From: Ferrithrix thermotolerans DSM 19514
Lineage (GTDB): Bacteria; Actinomycetota; Acidimicrobiia; Acidimicrobiales; Ilumatobacteraceae
DNA: 64,000 nucleotides
Direction: 5' to 3'
NCBI GenBank assembly: GCA_945889085.1
Contig: CAMDBM010000002.1
Location: forward strand, 9,745 to 73,744
Numbering within the stretch: position 1 is the first letter of the stretch; each line of letters begins with the position of its first letter. The notes beneath the pieces are model-generated. The model was not told the DNA's origin. It ran no database searches and saw only the letters and a list, made by a program, of their open reading frames with translations. This document shows, in pieces, positions 1,183 through 30,797 of the stretch. A program made the translations under genes and the position numbers.

Positions 1183-2781
1183 TTACTTGCCGAGCGAGTC
1201 GACGAGGCGGCGGGCAACCACCTTGAGGCACAGGGTCTCGTCGGCACCCTCGAAGATGCTGAGCACGCGGGCATCGACGAACAGCCGGCTCACGCTGTAC
1301 TCCTCGGCGTAGCCGTAGCCGCCGTGGATTTGCATGGCCTCACGGGTAACCCACTCGGCGGCCTTGCACACGTAGGCCTTCACCATCGAGGCCTCCATCT
1401 GGCCCTGACCCTTCGCCATGAGCGTCGCCACGGCGTAGGAGAACTGGCGGGATGCCTGGATCACGAATGCCATGCGGCCGAGCTTCACCTTCGTGAGTTC
1501 GTAGTCGCCCACGGTGTTGCCGAACACGGTGCGGTCCTGGGAGTAGGTGAGCGCAGCCTCGTACGCAGCCTGCATCACGCCGACGGCGCGTGCAGCGGTC
1601 TGCAGACGGCCGTTCTCGAATCCCTCCATCTGGTAGTAGAAGCCCTTGCCCATGCCGTCCTCGAGGCCGATGAGGTTCTCGGCGGGCACCCACCAGGCAT
1701 CGAGAGCGATCTCGTAGGAGTGCATGCCGCGGTACCCGATGGTGTCGATCGGGCGGCCTTCCATCTTGCCGCCACCGGGCTGGCTGAACTGGAAGCCGTG
1801 GGCATCGCCGAGCGGCTTGGGCACGATGAACACCGACAGGCCGCGGTGGGTCTTGGTGCGGTCCGGATCGGTGCGGGCGAGCAGCATGAGCACATTCGCG
1901 CGGGCGGCGAACGTGCACCAGGTCTTCACGCCGTTGATCACGTACCCGGCCTCGCCGTTGGGGCCTGCGGCCGGGGTGCCCGTGACCTTGATGCCGGCAA
2001 CGTCGGAGCCGTAATCGGGCTCGGTGACGGCCACGGCGCACATCACCTCAGCAGTAGCGAGCTTGGGCAGCCACTCCTGCTTCTGCTCCTCGGTGCCGCC
2101 CTTGACGAGCGCACGCGTGAGGATCTCGGGGCGGGTAATGAGCGAGCCGCCGATGCCGAGGCTGGCGCGGCTCAGTTCCTCGGTGGCGATGACCATCGCG
2201 GTGTACTCGCCGTCGCCGCCGGTGGAGAACCCGCCGTACTCCTCGGGGATCGAGAGGCCGAATGCGCCGATCTCGGCGAGTCCGCTGATGATGTTCTCGG
2301 GGACGTCCTCGTTGTAGCGGTGCACATGCTCGGCATGCGGGGCGATGACCTTGTCACCGAACGCGCGGAACGTGTCCTGCACCATCTCGAAGTCGGAGTC
2401 CAGATGACGTGGGCCGGGTGTAGCCGCAAGCGATGCGATGAACGACGGGTCGCGGTACGTGGCCACGAAGCCGTGTGCCGGTGTGAGCGCATTCGCGTCA
2501 ACGCCCCACAGCTGTTCGCGCCCGACCAGCTTGCACACGAGGTCGTGAACGGCATCAGCGACAAAGGCACAGGTGAGCGCGGATTCGACGGCGCCCTTTG
2601 CCCCGTAGTCGAGCATCGACCGGGCAGTGGACACGGCGGAGGCGGCATGAGCCACGTCGTACGCCAGCACCTGCTGGGAGTCTGGTCCACCGAGGTCGGC
2701 GAGGCGCCGTACGGCCTTGCCGACAACCCCCTCGGCCAGCTCGATGACGGAAACGGCAGCCTGCAGATCGTGGGCGGTCAT
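1183..2781 (-). CDS. acyl-CoA dehydrogenase family protein (long N-terminal extension)
   Basis: ACAD-like middle and C-terminal regions (TEPDYGSD, IHGGYGYAEEY, IFEGADE). Probable ATG at 2781 (MTAHDLQ). Confidence 0.85.
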   Translation of the reverse strand: MTAHDLQAAVSVIELAEGVVGKAVRRLADLGGPDSQQVLAYDVAHAASAVSTARSMLDYGAKGAVESALTCAFVADAVHDLVCKLVGREQLWGVDANALTPAHGFVATYRDPSFIASLAATPGPRHLDSDFEMVQDTFRAFGDKVIAPHAEHVHRYNEDVPENIISGLAEIGAFGLSIPEEYGGFSTGGDGEYTAMVIATEELSRASLGIGGSLITRPEILTRALVKGGTEEQKQEWLPKLATAEVMCAVAVTEPDYGSDVAGIKVTGTPAAGPNGEAGYVINGVKTWCTFAARANVLMLLARTDPDRTKTHRGLSVFIVPKPLGDAHGFQFSQPGGGKMEGRPIDTIGYRGMHSYEIALDAWWVPAENLIGLEDGMGKGFYYQMEGFENGRLQTAARAVGVMQAAYEAALTYSQDRTVFGNTVGDYELTKVKLGRMAFVIQASRQFSYAVATLMAKGQGQMEASMVKAYVCKAAEWVTREAMQIHGGYGYAEEYSVSRLFVDARVLSIFEGADETLCLKVVARRLVDSLGK

Positions 2782-26994: not shown

Positions 26995-27864
26995 TCAGAA
27001 GGTCATCGTGCGCAACCGGGCGATGCGCTCCTCGGTGGGGGGATGACTGCTGAAGAGCCGGGCCATGCTGGCGTTGCGCCCGCCGCGGAACTCGCTGAGC
27101 GGGTTGTGGATGTAGGCGTACGCCTGGGCCGGTGCGACCGACATGGGCGCCTTGGCGGCGAGCACCTCAATGCGCTCAAGGGCGGTTGCTAGCGATGCAC
27201 CGGAGCCGAGCAACTGCGCTGCGCCGCGGTCGGCCTCGAACTCGCGTGAGCGGCTGACCGCCATCTGGATGAGCGATGCTGCAATCGGTGCGAGCAGCGA
27301 CATGAGCAACATCGCGAACGGGTTCGGTCGGTCCTCGTCGTCGCGACCGCCTCCGAACATGCTCGCGAACATTGCCATCTGTGCGATGTAGGAGATCGCA
27401 GTCGAGATGGCAGCAGCCACCGAACCGATGAGGATGTCCCGGTGGCGAACGTGCATCAGTTCGTGCGCCATGACCGCCTCGATCTCGTCGCGCGGCATGG
27501 CCCGCAGGAGACCCTCGGTGGCGCAGACCACCGCCTTGCTGGGGCCGCGACCGGTAGCGAACGCGTTGGGCTGCGCACTTGGGGCGATCGCCACCCGGGG
27601 CATCGGGAGATTCGCCCGGGTGGCGAGCGACGCGACCATGTCGTAGAAGTCGGGGTTGTCGGAGCGCTCGATCACCTTCGCCTTGGCCGCACTGAGCGCA
27701 AGGCGGTCGCTGAACCAGTAGGAACCGCCGACCATGACGAAGGCGATGAGCAGGCCGATGGTAAGTGCTCCGCTGCTTCCTCCGCCGAGCAGGCCGGCGA
27801 CGGCCACGATGAGCCCGCCGAGTGCGGCGAGGAGCACGGTTGTCTTTGCGGTGTTCTTGAACAC
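26995..27864 (-). CDS. htpX: zinc metalloprotease HtpX (M48)
   Basis: HELMHV zinc motif, a TM-rich N-terminus, and EFEADRGAA. GTG start at 27864. The longer track ORF is an unlikely extension. Confidence 0.9.
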   Translation of the reverse strand: MFKNTAKTTVLLAALGGLIVAVAGLLGGGSSGALTIGLLIAFVMVGGSYWFSDRLALSAAKAKVIERSDNPDFYDMVASLATRANLPMPRVAIAPSAQPNAFATGRGPSKAVVCATEGLLRAMPRDEIEAVMAHELMHVRHRDILIGSVAAAISTAISYIAQMAMFASMFGGGRDDEDRPNPFAMLLMSLLAPIAASLIQMAVSRSREFEADRGAAQLLGSGASLATALERIEVLAAKAPMSVAPAQAYAYIHNPLSEFRGGRNASMARLFSSHPPTEERIARLRTMTF

Positions 27865-27877
27865 GGGTGGACCCTTC

Positions 27878-30613
27878 CTAACGGGTGTTGCGGGTACGGG
27901 CAGAGATGAACTTGCGGGCCTCCTCGGCGACCAGCACGCTGCTGGCCACCGCGATGCACACGAACCACTGGGCGAGGCTGATCGACATGGTGTCGAACAG
28001 GCTCTGCATCGGGCCGAAATGCGTGACGCCGACCTGCAGGAGGAGCACGGCGGCAAGCGAGACCCACAGCCAACGGTTCCGCAGGGTCGAGCGCCTGAAC
28101 ACGCTGCGCGTGTCGTGGCGGGCATTGAGGATGTTGAAGAACTGGAAGAGCACGAAGGTGTTGAATGCCATCGTCCCAGCGATCGAGGCCGTGCCTGCGC
28201 TGAGTGCGGGCCCGGGTGCGAACTCGAGCACGAGGAGCGTGCCGACGGCCATCACCAGGGCGGAGAGCCCGACGCTGGCCCAGCGGCCGCGCGTCAGGAT
28301 CCGCTCGTCTGCCGGTCGCGGTGCCGCGTGCATCGCGTCCGGTTCTTCTGCGTCAAGACCGAGCGCCATGGCCGGGGGGCCGTCCATGATGAGGTTGACC
28401 CAGAGGATTGCTACGGCAGTGAACGGCTTGCCGCTCGCGATGCCGATTATCGACGCAAGCAGGAACAGCACGGCGAACCCGAGCGTTGTGCTGAGCTGGA
28501 AGCGGACGAACTTCACAATGTTGGCGTAGATCGCCCGCCCCCGCCCGACGGCGCTGACGATCGTGGCGAAGTTGTCGTCGGCCAGCACCATGGTGGCGGC
28601 CTCCTTGCTCACATCCGTTCCGGTGATCCCCATGGCGATACCTAGGTCCGCCTGCTTGAGTGCCGGCGCGTCGTTCACCCCGTCACCGGTCATGGCAACC
28701 ACGTGGCCCCGGTGCTGCAGGATGCGGACGAGCCGCAGCTTGTGCTCGGGAGAGACACGGGCGAACACCGCAACCTCGTCCACGCGCTCGGCGAGTTGCT
28801 CGTCGCTCATCGCCTCGAGGTCCGCTCCCGAGAGCACGTCTCCCTCGAGGCCCAGTTCCCGAGCGATGGCGGTGGCGGTGGACGCGTGGTCTCCCGTGAT
28901 CATCTTCACGGCGATACCAGCCCGGTGCGCCTGCACGATCGCGTCCCTTGCCTCTGCCCGTGCGGGGTCGACGATTCCGACCAACGCGAGGAGCGTGAGG
29001 TCACGGACGAGGCCCATCGGCTCGCCCCCGCTTGACTGGAACTCCTGCCAGGCGTCGAGCGGCAGTTCCCGCTGGGCGATGGCCAGCACGCGATATCCGT
29101 TGTCGCCGAGGCGGCTGTTGTGGGCCTCGAGCGTCGCGCGGTGCTCGTTGATGTCCACTGCTGCGCCCGAACGGTCGATGACGCTCGTAGTGCGTGCGAG
29201 GAGCACGTCGGGGGCGCCCTTGACGAGGACCCGCACCATCACGTCGCCGTTGCTGTCGGCGAGCTCGTGCACCGTCGCCATGAACTTGTGCGTCGAGTCG
29301 AACGGCACCTCCGCAATCCGCGGATGCCGGGTGCGTAGCGGGCCGGCCTCTACGCCGCCCTTCGCGGCGAGCGCCACGAGCGCTCCCTCCGTCGGGTCGC
29401 CGACCAACTGCCAGTCGTTCTCGTTGCGCCGGATCTCGGCATCATTGCAGAGGACCATCGCGACGAGTGCAGTATCGAGCCCAACGGGGTCGTCGTCGTT
29501 CTTGCGGCGGATCTCCCCCTCCGGGGAGTACCCGAGGCCGCTCACCGCATGCTCGTGCAACTGCGTAACCAGCTCCACAGCGGTCATCTCGTTGAGCGTC
29601 AGCGTTCCGGTCTTGTCGCTGCAGATCACGGTTGCGCAGCCGAGCGTCTCGACCGAGGCGAGTCGCTTCACGATGGCGTTGCGCTTGGCGAGCTTGGAGA
29701 CCCCGACGGCGAGCGTGACAACGGTGACGGCGGGCAGTCCCTCGGGGATGGCGGCGACCGCGAGCGCTACCGAGGTGAGGATCACCTTGCTCAGGGGCTC
29801 TCCGCGGATCAGCCCGATGATGAAGACCACGGCGACGATGCCCATGGCGAGCTTGGCGACGCTGTTGGCCAGACCGTGGAGCTGTTTCTGCAACGGCGTG
29901 TCACCCGGCTCGGTTTCCCTGAGCAACGTCGCCAGTCGACCGATCTGGGTCTCCATCCCCGTGCCGGTCGCCACGAACTCGCCGCGTCCGCGGGTGATTG
30001 CGCTGTTCATGAACACCATGCCGCTTCGGTCCCCGAGCGGGACCGACTCGTCGGTGGGTCCACCCACGGCCTTGACCACCGGCGTGCTCTCGCCGGTGAG
30101 GGCGGACTCTGCTGCCTCGAGATTCGCTGTGGAAATCAGCCGCCCGTCGGCCGGCACCCGGTCGCCGGCCTCGAGCAGCACAATGTCGCCGGGTACGACC
30201 TCGCGGGACTCGACGTACAGCAGCGAGCCGTCCCGGCGGACCCGGGCCCGGGAGGTCATCGAGTTCCGAAGTGCGTCAACCGACTTCTCGGCGCGCTGTT
30301 CTTGCATGAAACCGATCACCACGTTGAGGACAACGACGGTGAGGACAATCGCCGGGGTCTTGAGCTCTCCCGACACGAGCCAGGCGACGACGGCGGCCGT
30401 GATGAGGAGCAGGATGAGCCTGTCGGTGAAGCCAGCGAGCAGGCGGCGCCACGCGGGCACACCGGCTGCGGCTACGAGTTCGTTCGGCCCGTGGGAGTCC
30501 AGACGGAGGGCGGCTTCCTGTGTGGAAAGCCCGAGCGAAGCATCACCGCTGTTCGGTGCGGTTTCGGCGGGAATGTTGGAGGCGGCAGTGCTCACGAGGG
30601 TTCCTTCGGTCAA
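27878..30613 (-). CDS. cation-transporting P-type ATPase (P2-like)
   Basis: CSDKTGTLT, MITGDH and TGDGVNDAPALKQADLGIAMG. The start is ambiguous: TTG 30613, or more likely GTG 30595 preceded by GAAGGA. Confidence 0.9.
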   Translation of the reverse strand: MTEGTLVSTAASNIPAETAPNSGDASLGLSTQEAALRLDSHGPNELVAAAGVPAWRRLLAGFTDRLILLLITAAVVAWLVSGELKTPAIVLTVVVLNVVIGFMQEQRAEKSVDALRNSMTSRARVRRDGSLLYVESREVVPGDIVLLEAGDRVPADGRLISTANLEAAESALTGESTPVVKAVGGPTDESVPLGDRSGMVFMNSAITRGRGEFVATGTGMETQIGRLATLLRETEPGDTPLQKQLHGLANSVAKLAMGIVAVVFIIGLIRGEPLSKVILTSVALAVAAIPEGLPAVTVVTLAVGVSKLAKRNAIVKRLASVETLGCATVICSDKTGTLTLNEMTAVELVTQLHEHAVSGLGYSPEGEIRRKNDDDPVGLDTALVAMVLCNDAEIRRNENDWQLVGDPTEGALVALAAKGGVEAGPLRTRHPRIAEVPFDSTHKFMATVHELADSNGDVMVRVLVKGAPDVLLARTTSVIDRSGAAVDINEHRATLEAHNSRLGDNGYRVLAIAQRELPLDAWQEFQSSGGEPMGLVRDLTLLALVGIVDPARAEARDAIVQAHRAGIAVKMITGDHASTATAIARELGLEGDVLSGADLEAMSDEQLAERVDEVAVFARVSPEHKLRLVRILQHRGHVVAMTGDGVNDAPALKQADLGIAMGITGTDVSKEAATMVLADDNFATIVSAVGRGRAIYANIVKFVRFQLSTTLGFAVLFLLASIIGIASGKPFTAVAILWVNLIMDGPPAMALGLDAEEPDAMHAAPRPADERILTRGRWASVGLSALVMAVGTLLVLEFAPGPALSAGTASIAGTMAFNTFVLFQFFNILNARHDTRSVFRRSTLRNRWLWVSLAAVLLLQVGVTHFGPMQSLFDTMSISLAQWFVCIAVASSVLVAEEARKFISARTRNTR

Positions 30614-30630
30614 ACGACGATGTTCGTTTT

Positions 30631-30727
30631 CCGAAGGTCTTTCCCGGCCCAGCTAGCTGGACCCACTGCAACCGGGTGTTTCCACCGTGATGACGACTGC
30701 AATGCGGAGGAATACTCCCCTTCTTGG
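30631..30727 (-). promoter_or_regulatory. yybP-ykoY (Mn2+) riboswitch-like leader
   Basis: The minus-strand RNA reads AGAAGGGGAGUA...AGUCGUCAUCACGGUGGAAACACCCGGUUGCAGUG-GGUCCAGCUAGCUGGGCC-GGGAAAGACCUUCGG. It matches the conserved GGGGAGUA (L1), AGUCGUCA (L3), GAAA-capped hairpin and AAGACCUU 3' strand of the Lactococcus lactis yoaB element, recalled from memory. I could not place a P2 hairpin. Confidence 0.65.
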
Positions 30728-30797
30728 ATGCGGAGTTTACGGCACCCAGAAACACTTTCCACTCATCATCAGCGGGGCTGATGCGTAGGGAGTGTCC

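What the first reader, a model, noticed from the sequence alone, without database searches (positions are those of the whole stretch)
30593..30727. Mn2+ (yybP-ykoY) riboswitch-like leader with an apparent RBS-sequestering switch in front of a P-type ATPase
The 184-nt gap between sufU and the ATPase gene, read on the minus strand, contains these elements:
- GAAGGGGAGUA (30713..30723).
- AGUCGUCA (30691..30698).
- A GAAA-capped hairpin CGGUG-GAAA-CACCCG (30673..30687).
- UUGCAG/UUGCAG pairing.
- A GGUCCAG-CUAG-CUGGGCC hairpin (30646..30663).
- GGGAAAGACCUUCGG (30631..30645).

These match, segment by segment, the conserved L1, L3 and 3' P1 strands of the Lactococcus lactis yoaB manganese riboswitch, which also precedes a P-type ATPase.

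The 3' P1 strand CCUUCGG (30631..30637) is perfectly complementary to CCGAAGG (30603..30609). That segment overlaps the GAAGGA Shine-Dalgarno-like element 6 nt upstream of GTG 30595, and also the alternative TTG start at 30613. An ON switch is therefore plausible: Mn2+-stabilised P1 would free the RBS.

One oddity is that I cannot find a P2 hairpin between L1 and P3, so this may be a reduced three-way-junction variant.
Basis: partly seen in the sequence, partly recalled or inferred. Interest (0 to 1): 0.6.

Follow-up and report, generated by a model that had tools for sequence, protein, structure and literature searches.

The report
Actinobacterial manganese riboswitch lacking helix P2
The leader of this P-type ATPase gene is a real, strongly conserved RNA switch of the well-known manganese-sensing (yybP-ykoY) class, in a compact three-helix form that the standard Rfam model misses; it most likely turns on translation of a metal pump when manganese rises.

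Summary
The 93-nt core (window 30723..30631, minus strand) is a conserved structured RNA, found in 165/301 genomes of the same family and 30/151 across the phylum.

**Fold:** two legs carry invariant L1 (GGAGUAU/AAAGA) and L3 (UCGUCAUCAC/CGG) loops, joined by a three-way junction without P2. It has very strong covariation: 95-100% of cells paired and 22/27 pairs compensatory in 106 copies, against at most 54% in slid controls.

**Rfam:** RF00080 gives no hit. That test has no power here, because the same model scores validated E. coli mntP below its cut-off and misses validated, P2-less alx.

**Reciprocal test:** a model built only from the actinobacterial copies finds the E. coli alx aptamer full-length (E ~1e-4) with the same layout.

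**Downstream genes:** TerC/Alx (TIGR03718), PMR1-like P-type ATPases and a Zn-ribbon gene, which fits the known Mn2+ riboswitch regulon.

**Switch:** the 3' P1.1 strand CCUUCGG pairs either with GAAGG (aptamer closed) or with the Shine-Dalgarno CCGAAGGA, and this alternative helix also covaries. That implies a translational ON switch.

**Verdict:** This is an unannotated member of a known class. Metal binding is untested.

The parts
30734..30739 (-). Putative -10 promoter hexamer TAAACT, ending 10 nt before the first base of the aptamer. It implies a transcript that starts at about 30725-30727, independent of the suf operon.
   Evidence: A TANNNT hexamer lies 7-12 nt upstream of the aptamer in 31/32 copies, against 0.9% of comparable windows in the same loci. 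The strict sigma-70 consensus scan found nothing. Inference; no transcript data.
30631..30723 (-). Aptamer, 93 nt: a three-way-junction (P2-less) yybP-ykoY-type fold.
   Evidence: Model R1 scores it 112 bits. Covariation. Reciprocal hit to the E. coli alx aptamer.
30719..30723 (-). P1.1 5' strand GAAGG (switch helix; mimics the Shine-Dalgarno sequence).
   Evidence: Pairs with CCUUC 30637..30633. Invariant in 32/32 family copies. Phylum-wide it is 96% paired with a few compensatory changes.
30712..30718 (-). L1 5' strand GGAGUAU.
   Evidence: Invariant in all copies. Matches the RF00080 consensus UGGGGAGUAGC and alx GGGGAGUAA.
30709..30711 (-). P1.2 5' strand UCC (CCC in most copies), pairing with GGG 30645..30643.
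   Evidence: 100% paired; U-G in the genus and C-G elsewhere.
30705..30708 (-). Junction linker UCCG, at the place where P2 sits in four-way-junction members.
   Evidence: 4-5 variable unpaired nt in all copies. RF00080 collapses 19 model positions to 5 nt here on sibling copy L031.
30664..30704 (-). P3 leg. P3.1 is CAUUGCAG (30704..30697) paired with UUGCAGUG (30671..30664). L3 is UCGUCAUCAC (30696..30687) plus CGG (30674..30672). P3.2 is the hairpin GGUG-GAAA-CACC (30686..30675).
   Evidence: All 8 pairs of P3.1 and all 4 pairs of P3.2 show compensatory changes, while L3 is invariant. L3 is nearly identical to E. coli alx UCGUCAUUAC...CGG. A30691, in UCGUCA, is the likely counterpart of the Mn-coordinating L3 adenosine (inference from memory of the L. 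lactis numbering and PMC6649816).
30646..30663 (-). P4 hairpin GGUCCAG-CUAG-CUGGGCC.
   Evidence: All 7 pairs show compensatory changes; loop and length vary.
30633..30642 (-). L1 3' strand AAAGA (30642..30638) and P1.1 3' strand CCUUC (30637..30633). Together with GG 30632..30631 this forms CCUUCGG, the strand that switches partners.
   Evidence: AGACCUUC is invariant; compare alx GAGACCUU. Pairs with either GAAGG or CCGAAGG.
30610..30630 (-). Inner hairpin of the sequestering stem (AAACGA...UCGUUU).
   Evidence: Part of the minimum-free-energy structure. Analogous short hairpins are present in other copies.
30602..30609 (-). CCGAAGGA: anti-P1 strand that contains the Shine-Dalgarno GAAGGA.
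   Evidence: Exact CCGAAGG lies 12-28 nt after the aptamer in 24 of 32 copies, and four more carry a near-variant (CCGAAAGG or CCGGAGG), with a start codon 5-12 nt later. The three bases flanking the core covary with the 3' P1 strand in 41/48 cases: CGA/UCG, GUG/CAC, CGU/ACG. P(unpaired) = 0 in the free ensemble.
27878..30595 (-). P-type IIA ATPase gene (905 aa from GTG 30595), PMR1/SERCA-like.
   Evidence: Pfam E1-E2_ATPase, Cation_ATPase_N and Cation_ATPase_C. Best NCBIfam match is TIGR01522, PMR1-type, at 710 bits, below the equivalog cut-off of 798.
26995..27864 (-). htpX-like M48 metalloprotease gene, probably co-transcribed. GTG 27864 lies 13 nt after the ATPase stop, preceded by GAAGGG.
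   Evidence: Sequence; Pfam Peptidase_M48. The same N-terminus (MFKNTAKT...) sits directly behind the riboswitch in loci labelled Bifidobacterium/Bifidobacteriaceae.

Best explanation
The 93-nt element at window 30723..30631 (minus strand) is the aptamer of a manganese-type (yybP-ykoY class) riboswitch in its three-way-junction form without P2, the same architecture as E. coli alx.

It heads its own transcription unit (putative -10 TAAACT at 30739..30734) for a PMR1-like P-type ATPase followed by an HtpX-type protease.

By default the 3' strand of the switch helix P1.1 (CCUUCGG, 30637..30631) pairs with CCGAAGG (30609..30603) and buries the Shine-Dalgarno sequence, so translation is off. When Mn2+ (with Mg2+) binds between the docked L1 and L3 loops, the two legs lock together. 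This stabilises P1.1 (GAAGG 30723..30719 with CCUUC). The Shine-Dalgarno GAAGGA is then free, and translation starts at GTG 30595.

Shown here: conservation, the fold, covariation of both alternative helices, the gene associations and the homology to validated Mn2+ riboswitches. Inferred: the ligand, the direction of the switch and the promoter.
For: 1. **Fold.** 100%, 97.7% and 95.3% of cells are paired in 7, 32 and 106 copies, with 12, 19 and 22 of 27 pairs compensatory. Slid controls reach at most 54%. The 106-copy set was collected with a pattern that fixed only the L1, P1.2 and L3 strands, not the covarying helices.
2. **Homology to validated members.** Model R1, built only from actinobacterial copies, finds the E. 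coli alx aptamer full-length (25.8 bits, E 9.5e-5 in 7 kb, 80 nt before the alx start). The order of elements is the same and L3 is nearly identical. It also finds the P3/L3/P4 leg of mntP at 25.1 bits. RF00080 aligns sibling copies below threshold (22-29.5 bits) through GGGGAGUA and the P3/L3 leg, with the P2 positions deleted.
3. **Regulon.** Of 120 phylum-wide copies, 60 precede TerC/Alx, 14 the IIA ATPase and 7 a Zn_ribbon_TFIIB gene. The TerC gene passes TIGR03718 'R_switched_Alx' at 374 bits against a cut-off of 246. TIGR03717/TIGR03718 are reported as the genes most commonly controlled by Mn2+ riboswitches (PMC5737381). A P-type II ATPase is the target of the validated S. pneumoniae mgtA Mn2+ riboswitch (PMC6649816).
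4. **Switch.** P1.1 is the family's documented switch helix (PMC12153347). Here its 3' strand has a conserved, covarying alternative partner that contains the SD. In the thermodynamic ensemble the SD is fully paired, and it becomes partly free when P1.1 is enforced.
5. **Known architecture.** A P2-less three-way junction is documented for alx (PMC12153347).
Against: - RF00080 gives no hit on the window copy, even at E<=10. This is weakened by the failed positive controls.
- The nearest-neighbour model favours the OFF fold by about 11 kcal/mol (-59.4 against -48.2). P1.1 has only 5 bp, so ligand-driven or co-transcriptional capture of P1.1 has to be assumed.
- Some target genes (PMR1/SERCA-like ATPase, Na_Ca_ex family) are classically Ca2+ transporters, and the S. 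pneumoniae aptamer binds Ca2+ more tightly than Mn2+ in vitro (PMC6649816). Metal identity is therefore not settled.
- The last L1 base is U where the Rfam consensus has G.
Confidence: 0.8

Rival explanations
1. The aptamer fold and switch mechanism are as described, but the physiological signal in these actinobacteria is Ca2+, or Ca2+ and Mn2+ jointly, and the unit controls a Ca2+ efflux pump.
For: The ATPase is closest to PMR1- and SERCA-type Ca2+ pumps. Na_Ca_ex-family transporters recur behind the motif. The related S. pneumoniae mgtA aptamer binds Ca2+ more tightly than Mn2+ in vitro (PMC6649816).
Against: Half of the phylum-wide copies precede TerC/Alx genes of the subfamily tied to Mn2+ riboswitches (PMC5737381). 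L3 is nearly identical to that of Mn2+-responsive alx. In S. pneumoniae, activation in vitro and in vivo was by Mn2+, not Ca2+ (PMC6649816).
Confidence: 0.1
2. The RNA behaves like the E. coli alx element and mainly reports alkaline pH, through pH-dependent folding or pausing, with Mn2+ only as a cofactor.
For: It shares the P2-less architecture and a near-identical L3 with alx (PMC12153347). Many copies precede Alx-type genes.
Against: The alx aptamer carries an intrinsic termination site in a long P4 (PMC12153347). Here P4 is a 7-bp hairpin with no U tract, and no terminator-like site was found. The cited work concludes that alx itself senses the Mn2+ rise caused by alkaline pH.
Confidence: 0.05
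3. It is a conserved structured leader that does not sense a metal: for example a protein-binding site, a thermosensor, or a constitutive translational attenuator that happens to resemble the Mn2+ aptamer.
For: No binding data exist. RF00080 does not reach threshold.
Against: The unpaired L1 and L3 strands are invariant across a phylum while all the helices covary, which is the signature of a ligand pocket. There is a reciprocal match to validated Mn2+ aptamers. The same element precedes unrelated genes with a metal-homeostasis theme.
Confidence: 0.05

Closest known systems
E. coli alx Mn2+ riboswitch (yybP-ykoY class, three-way junction without P2)
   Same: The order of elements is the same: P1.1, L1 (GGGGAGUA), P1.2, a short linker instead of P2, P3.1, L3 (UCGUCAUUAC in alx, UCGUCAUCAC here), P3.2, CGG, P4, GAGACCUU. 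Control is translational, through the 3' strand of P1.1. The target family (Alx/TerC) is the commonest target of the actinobacterial copies. The model built here finds alx full-length. The architecture is described in PMC12153347.
   Different: alx has a long P4 with an intrinsic termination site and a pH-linked response, and is described as restricted to Enterobacteriales (PMC12153347). Here P4 is a short hairpin. The platform is a compact SD-sequestering stem directly after the aptamer. The element is spread across Actinomycetota, with hits also in records labelled Chloroflexota. In the window the target is a P-type ATPase.
S. pneumoniae mgtA Mn2+/Ca2+ riboswitch (yybP-ykoY class)
   Same: It precedes a P-type II ATPase, has a three-way junction with conserved L1 (5' strand plus an invariant AGA on the 3' side) and L3, and is an ON switch (PMC6649816).
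   Different: mgtA lacks P4, not P2, and acts through a transcription terminator. The window element lacks P2 and acts on the ribosome-binding site.
L. lactis yoaB and E. coli mntP Mn2+ riboswitches (canonical four-way junction; Rfam RF00080)
   Same: L1 and L3 sequences, the two-leg design, the P1.1 switch helix and ON logic. R1 aligns the mntP P3/L3/P4 leg.
   Different: These have a P2 hairpin stacked on P1. RF00080 (177 positions, no P1 pairing in its consensus structure line as displayed) scores the window copy below detection.
terC motif RNA (Weinberg et al. 2017)
   Same: It is found upstream of TIGR03717/TIGR03718 and COG3809 genes and is suspected to sense a metal (PMC5737381).
   Different: It is a separate motif described in that paper. 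No Rfam family other than RF00080 aligned to any copy on the RNA strand. I did not confirm that the terC motif is among the 4227 families searched.

Membership tests
yybP-ykoY / Manganese riboswitch (Rfam RF00080) | Score at or above the RF00080 gathering threshold (45 bits) | tested here: not met
   There is no hit on the window copy even at E<=10, 0/25 family genomes over the cut-off and 0/151 phylum genomes. The test does not discriminate: validated E. coli mntP scores 41.6 bits and validated alx is not detected.
yybP-ykoY / Manganese riboswitch (Rfam RF00080) | Conserved L1 internal loop (5' GGGGAGUA, 3' AGA before the P1.1 strand) | tested here: met
   GAAGGGGAGUAU and A(A/G)AGACCUUC are invariant in 32 copies. 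They match the RF00080 consensus UGGGGAGUAGC and the invariant AGA described in PMC6649816.
yybP-ykoY / Manganese riboswitch (Rfam RF00080) | P3 leg with an L3 loop containing CGUCA, closed by the P3.2 hairpin | tested here: met
   UCGUCAUCAC...CGG is invariant, between covarying P3.1 and P3.2. It aligns to the RF00080 consensus GCGUCAACAUAC and to alx UCGUCAUUAC.
yybP-ykoY / Manganese riboswitch (Rfam RF00080) | Four-way junction (P2 stacked on P1, P4 on P3) | tested here: not met
   P2 is replaced by a 4-5 nt linker in all copies, while P4 is present. This is not disqualifying: validated members alx (no P2, PMC12153347) and mgtA (no P4, PMC6649816) are also three-way junctions.
yybP-ykoY / Manganese riboswitch (Rfam RF00080) | P1.1 switch helix whose 3' strand pairs alternatively with the expression platform | tested here: met
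   CCUUCGG pairs with GAAGG or with the SD-containing CCGAAGG. The alternative helix is conserved and covaries. The concept is from PMC12153347.
yybP-ykoY / Manganese riboswitch (Rfam RF00080) | Association with Mn2+ homeostasis genes (TerC/Alx, P-type ATPase, COG3809) | tested here: met
   TerC/Alx 60, ATPase 14 and Zn-ribbon 7 of 120. TIGR03718 is passed. The literature link is PMC5737381. The equivalence of the PF13453 gene with COG3809 is from memory and was not verified.
yybP-ykoY / Manganese riboswitch (Rfam RF00080) | Detectable homology to validated members by a covariance model | tested here: met
   R1 finds alx full-length at 25.8 bits, E 9.5e-5, and mntP partially at 25.1 bits, E 1.3e-4, each at the correct site and strand.
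yybP-ykoY / Manganese riboswitch (Rfam RF00080) | Selective Mn2+ binding and Mn2+-dependent activation | not testable with these tools
   This needs in-line probing, ITC and reporter assays.
alx-type subclass (P2-less, pH-linked, Enterobacteriales) | P2 absent, three-way junction | tested here: met
   PMC12153347.
alx-type subclass (P2-less, pH-linked, Enterobacteriales) | Intrinsic termination site within a long P4 | tested here: not met
   P4 is a 7-bp hairpin with a CUAG loop and no U tract. The terminator scan found nothing.
alx-type subclass (P2-less, pH-linked, Enterobacteriales) | Restricted to Enterobacteriales | tested here: not met
   The motif is found in Acidimicrobiia, Thermoleophilia, many Actinomycetes and records labelled Chloroflexota, and in 30/151 genomes of the phylum.

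The most novel reading that the evidence does not exclude
The P2-less three-way-junction aptamer is not an enterobacterial peculiarity. It is the standard Mn-type riboswitch of a whole phylum (Actinomycetota, reaching into Chloroflexota), is invisible to the current Rfam model, and has an unrecognised regulon that includes HtpX and M50 proteases, baeRF_family3 proteins, DksA/TraR zinc-finger proteins and a poly-Asp Zn-ribbon protein. In the boldest form, this subclass has shifted metal selectivity (Ca2+, or dual Ca2+/Mn2+), matching its frequent pairing with Ca2+-type pumps and exchangers.
Probability: 0.12. Interest if true: 0.6.

Novelty: new member of a known kind. Interest (0 to 1): 0.35.

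Why it matters
For this genome, it assigns a regulator and a likely substrate class (Mn2+, possibly Ca2+) to an otherwise generic P-type ATPase-htpX unit next to the suf genes.

More generally, it exposes an annotation gap. In the sample tested, the current RF00080 model reached its threshold in 0 of 151 genomes of the phylum, while the model built here found the element in 30 of 151, and in 165 of 301 genomes of the family. It also qualifies the published statement that alx-like (P2-less) aptamers are confined to Enterobacteriales.

The invariant P1.1 strand that doubles as a Shine-Dalgarno mimic gives a very compact translational platform, which would be convenient for mechanistic study. The recurring non-transporter targets (HtpX, baeRF_family3, the Zn-ribbon/poly-Asp protein) are leads into the manganese-stress response.

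Tried and rejected
- **Rfam.** I ran gathering mode on the whole window and permissive E-value mode on 401 nt and 106 nt. The only returns were chance microRNA and snoRNA matches on the other strand.
- **RF00080 on the window's own genome.** It gave only weak hits of about 12 bits elsewhere.
- **Strict sigma-70 and intrinsic-terminator scans.** Neither found anything. I therefore dropped a transcription-termination platform and identified the promoter only through the conserved TANNNT spacing.
- **TTG 30613 as the start codon.** Rejected: it lies upstream of the SD, inside the sequestering stem, and the GTG with its 7-nt spacing from GAAGG is the conserved arrangement in the genus.
- **Co-transcription from sufU as the only source of the leader.** Unlikely: genus orthologues have unrelated upstream DNA but keep the -10-like element.
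- **My first structure string.** It was one column out of register for three helices and was replaced. A second table (the outer P1.1 pairs) was mis-indexed, so I ignore it; P1.1 statistics come.
- **Founding papers.** The two founding Mn2+ riboswitch papers (PMC4376352, PMC4703321) are not held.
Full report
**Observation.** The genes themselves are confirmed by Pfam. The ATPase (905 aa from GTG 30595) has Cation_ATPase_N, E1-E2_ATPase and Cation_ATPase_C domains. It is closest to PMR1-type and SERCA-type pumps, scoring 710 bits on TIGR01522, below the equivalog cut-off. The 216-nt leader folds much better than shuffled versions (z = -3.7). Its minimum-free-energy structure already pairs CCUUCGG with CCGAAGG.

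**The Rfam test and why it does not decide the matter.** No Rfam 15 family reaches its gathering score anywhere in the window. RF00080 gives nothing at E<=10 on 401 nt or on 106 nt.

I therefore ran positive controls. On E. coli K-12 the same model scores the validated mntP aptamer at 41.6 bits, below its own cut-off of 45. It does not report the validated alx aptamer at all at E<=1. The consensus structure line shown for this model carries no P1 pairing and ends after a long P4. In genomes that demonstrably carry the element described below, RF00080 is over its cut-off in 0 of 25, and in 0 of 151 genomes sampled across the phylum. Its best sub-threshold hits (16-30 bits) fall on the same sites. 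On locus L031 it aligns GGGGAGUA and the whole P3/L3 leg, while collapsing 19 model positions to 5 nt exactly where P2 belongs.

**Conservation and structure.** It recurs as a second copy in one of them, before a different gene, and appears in another genus. Seven copies align without structural conflict. The structure I named for them has these parts:

| Element | Sequence in the window copy |
|---|---|
| P1.1 | GAAGG / CCUUC |
| L1 | GGAGUAU / AAAGA |
| P1.2 | UCC / GGG |
| Linker | 4 nt (UCCG) |
| P3.1 | 8 bp |
| L3 | UCGUCAUCAC / CGG |
| P3.2 | hairpin GGUG-GAAA-CACC |
| P4 | hairpin GGUCCAG-CUAG-CUGGGCC |

This structure is 100% paired, with 12 of 27 pairs changed on both sides, while slid registers reach at most 54%.

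A covariance model (R1) then found the element in 165 of 301 genomes and 44 of 61 genera of the same family, often in several copies. It found it in 30 of 151 genomes across the phylum. In 32 copies the structure is 97.7% paired, every pair of P3.1, P3.2 and P4 is compensatory, and L1, L3, P1.1 and P1.2 are invariant.

For a less circular test I scanned the named genome collection with a pattern that fixes only the L1, P1.2 and L3 strands. They come from Acidimicrobiia, Thermoleophilia, Streptomyces, Bifidobacterium, Dietzia, Brevibacterium, Cellulomonas and others, with some records labelled Chloroflexota. In 106 distinct copies the helices are 95.3% paired with 22 of 27 pairs compensatory, against at most 51% in slid registers.

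Matching contigs identify two genomes of the sample. G001 (same genus as the window) is an 'Acidimicrobiia bacterium' MAG, and G233 (same family) is an 'Ilumatobacteraceae bacterium' MAG. The window therefore most likely comes from a freshwater member of that family (inference).

**Relation to validated manganese riboswitches.** R1 contains no enterobacterial sequence. Run without filters on 7 kb of E. coli DNA, its best hit is a full-length alignment to the alx leader (25.8 bits, E 9.5e-5), 80 nt before the alx start. The layout is AAAGGGGAGUAA - CUU - linker - P3.1 - UCGUCAUUAC - P3.2 - CGG - P3.1' - P4 - AAG - UGAGACCUU. Its second hit is the P3/L3/P4 leg of the mntP aptamer (25.1 bits).

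[quoted passage not shown] The S. pneumoniae mgtA riboswitch, which precedes a P-type II ATPase, is a three-way junction lacking P4 (PMC6649816).

**Gene associations.** Within the family, copies precede P-type IIA ATPases, 331-aa TerC proteins and small Zn-ribbon proteins. The TerC protein passes NCBIfam TIGR03718 'R_switched_Alx' (374 bits, cut-off 246).

| Gene after the motif (120 phylum-wide loci) | Copies |
|---|---|
| TerC/Alx | 60 |
| P-type IIA ATPase | 14 |
| Zn-ribbon gene | 7 |

The remaining loci include HtpX-type M48 proteases, Na_Ca_ex transporters, baeRF_family3 proteins, an M50 protease, a VTT/DedA protein, DksA/TraR zinc-finger proteins, AMP-binding enzymes and a PGPGW protein. 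Weinberg et al. report TIGR03717/TIGR03718 as the genes most commonly controlled by Mn2+ riboswitches, with COG3809 genes also common (PMC5737381).

**Expression platform.** Exact CCGAAGG follows the aptamer by 12-28 nt in 24 of 32 family copies, and four more carry a near-variant. A start codon lies 5-12 nt behind it. Phylum-wide, the three bases that extend this helix beyond the AAGG/CCUU core pair in 41 of 48 cases and switch together (CGA/UCG, GUG/CAC, CGU/ACG). Both alternative helices are therefore under selection.

In the window, the free ensemble leaves the SD fully paired. Enforcing P1.1 partly frees it, at a nearest-neighbour cost of about 11 kcal/mol (-59.4 against -48.2 kcal/mol). 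This means OFF by default and ON when tertiary docking and metal binding stabilise P1.1, the same logic as the known Mn2+ switches. No terminator-like site exists, so control is translational.

A TANNNT hexamer lies 7-12 nt upstream of the aptamer in 31 of 32 copies, against a background of 0.9%. In the window it is TAAACT, 30739..30734. The ATPase unit therefore probably has its own promoter, with the transcript beginning at the aptamer. An htpX-like M48 gene starts 13 nt after the ATPase stop and is probably co-transcribed.

**Verdict.** The element is a genuine member of the manganese riboswitch class in its P2-less form, acting as a translational ON switch. It is unannotated because the current Rfam model lacks sensitivity for this subgroup.

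Actinobacterial yybP-ykoY motifs were already reported from older Rfam scans of C. glutamicum (PMC4046766, PMC8164766), so the class in this phylum is not new. What is modestly new is the recognition that the alx-type architecture is widespread in Actinomycetota, the size of the Rfam blind spot, and several non-transporter targets. Metal identity (Mn2+ against Ca2+) and the response itself remain untested.

Noticed in passing
window 26995-27864 (minus strand): An HtpX-like M48 metalloprotease gene starts at GTG 27864, 13 nt after the ATPase stop, behind its own GAAGGG. The same protein family (N-terminus MFKNTAKT...) sits directly behind the riboswitch in loci labelled Bifidobacterium/Bifidobacteriaceae (L075, L091, L138, L140). 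Membrane-protein quality control therefore appears to be part of this regulon.
   Followed up: partly
L010:1501-1910 (second copy in G002); also L018, L027, L030, L033: The same aptamer precedes an 87-113 aa protein with an N-terminal Zn_ribbon_TFIIB domain (two CxxC pairs), a run of 6-8 Asp, a basic patch and a conserved C-terminal GLLGE(L/I)FDF. Its function is unknown. It may correspond to the COG3809 genes linked to Mn2+ riboswitches in PMC5737381.
   Followed up: partly
L052, L057, L065, L077, L095, L100, L127, L133, L160: Proteins of about 340-400 aa that match Pfam baeRF_family3 (bacterial archaeo-eukaryotic release-factor-like) recur directly downstream of the aptamer in several actinobacterial lineages. 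This is an unexpected target for a metal riboswitch.
   Followed up: partly
L029:1333-1423(-) and 1501-1595(+); also L100, L095, L045, L110: Two aptamer copies sit back to back on opposite strands, about 80-180 nt apart, heading divergent genes.
   Followed up: no
L040 and L041 (E. coli K-12 alx and mntP leaders): The Rfam 15 RF00080 model, as run here, scores validated mntP at 41.6 bits (cut-off 45) and does not report validated alx. Its consensus structure line shows no P1 helix. This is a sensitivity problem that will affect any scan relying on the model.
   Followed up: yes
window 30767-30783 (minus strand): A hairpin CAUCAGC-CCC-GCUGAUG lies 15 nt after the sufU stop, without a U tract. 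It may be the end of the suf transcript.
   Followed up: no
L107, L145, L154, L157: Na_Ca_ex (CaCA family) transporters lie behind the same aptamer. This keeps open a link to Ca2+, or broader cation specificity.
   Followed up: partly
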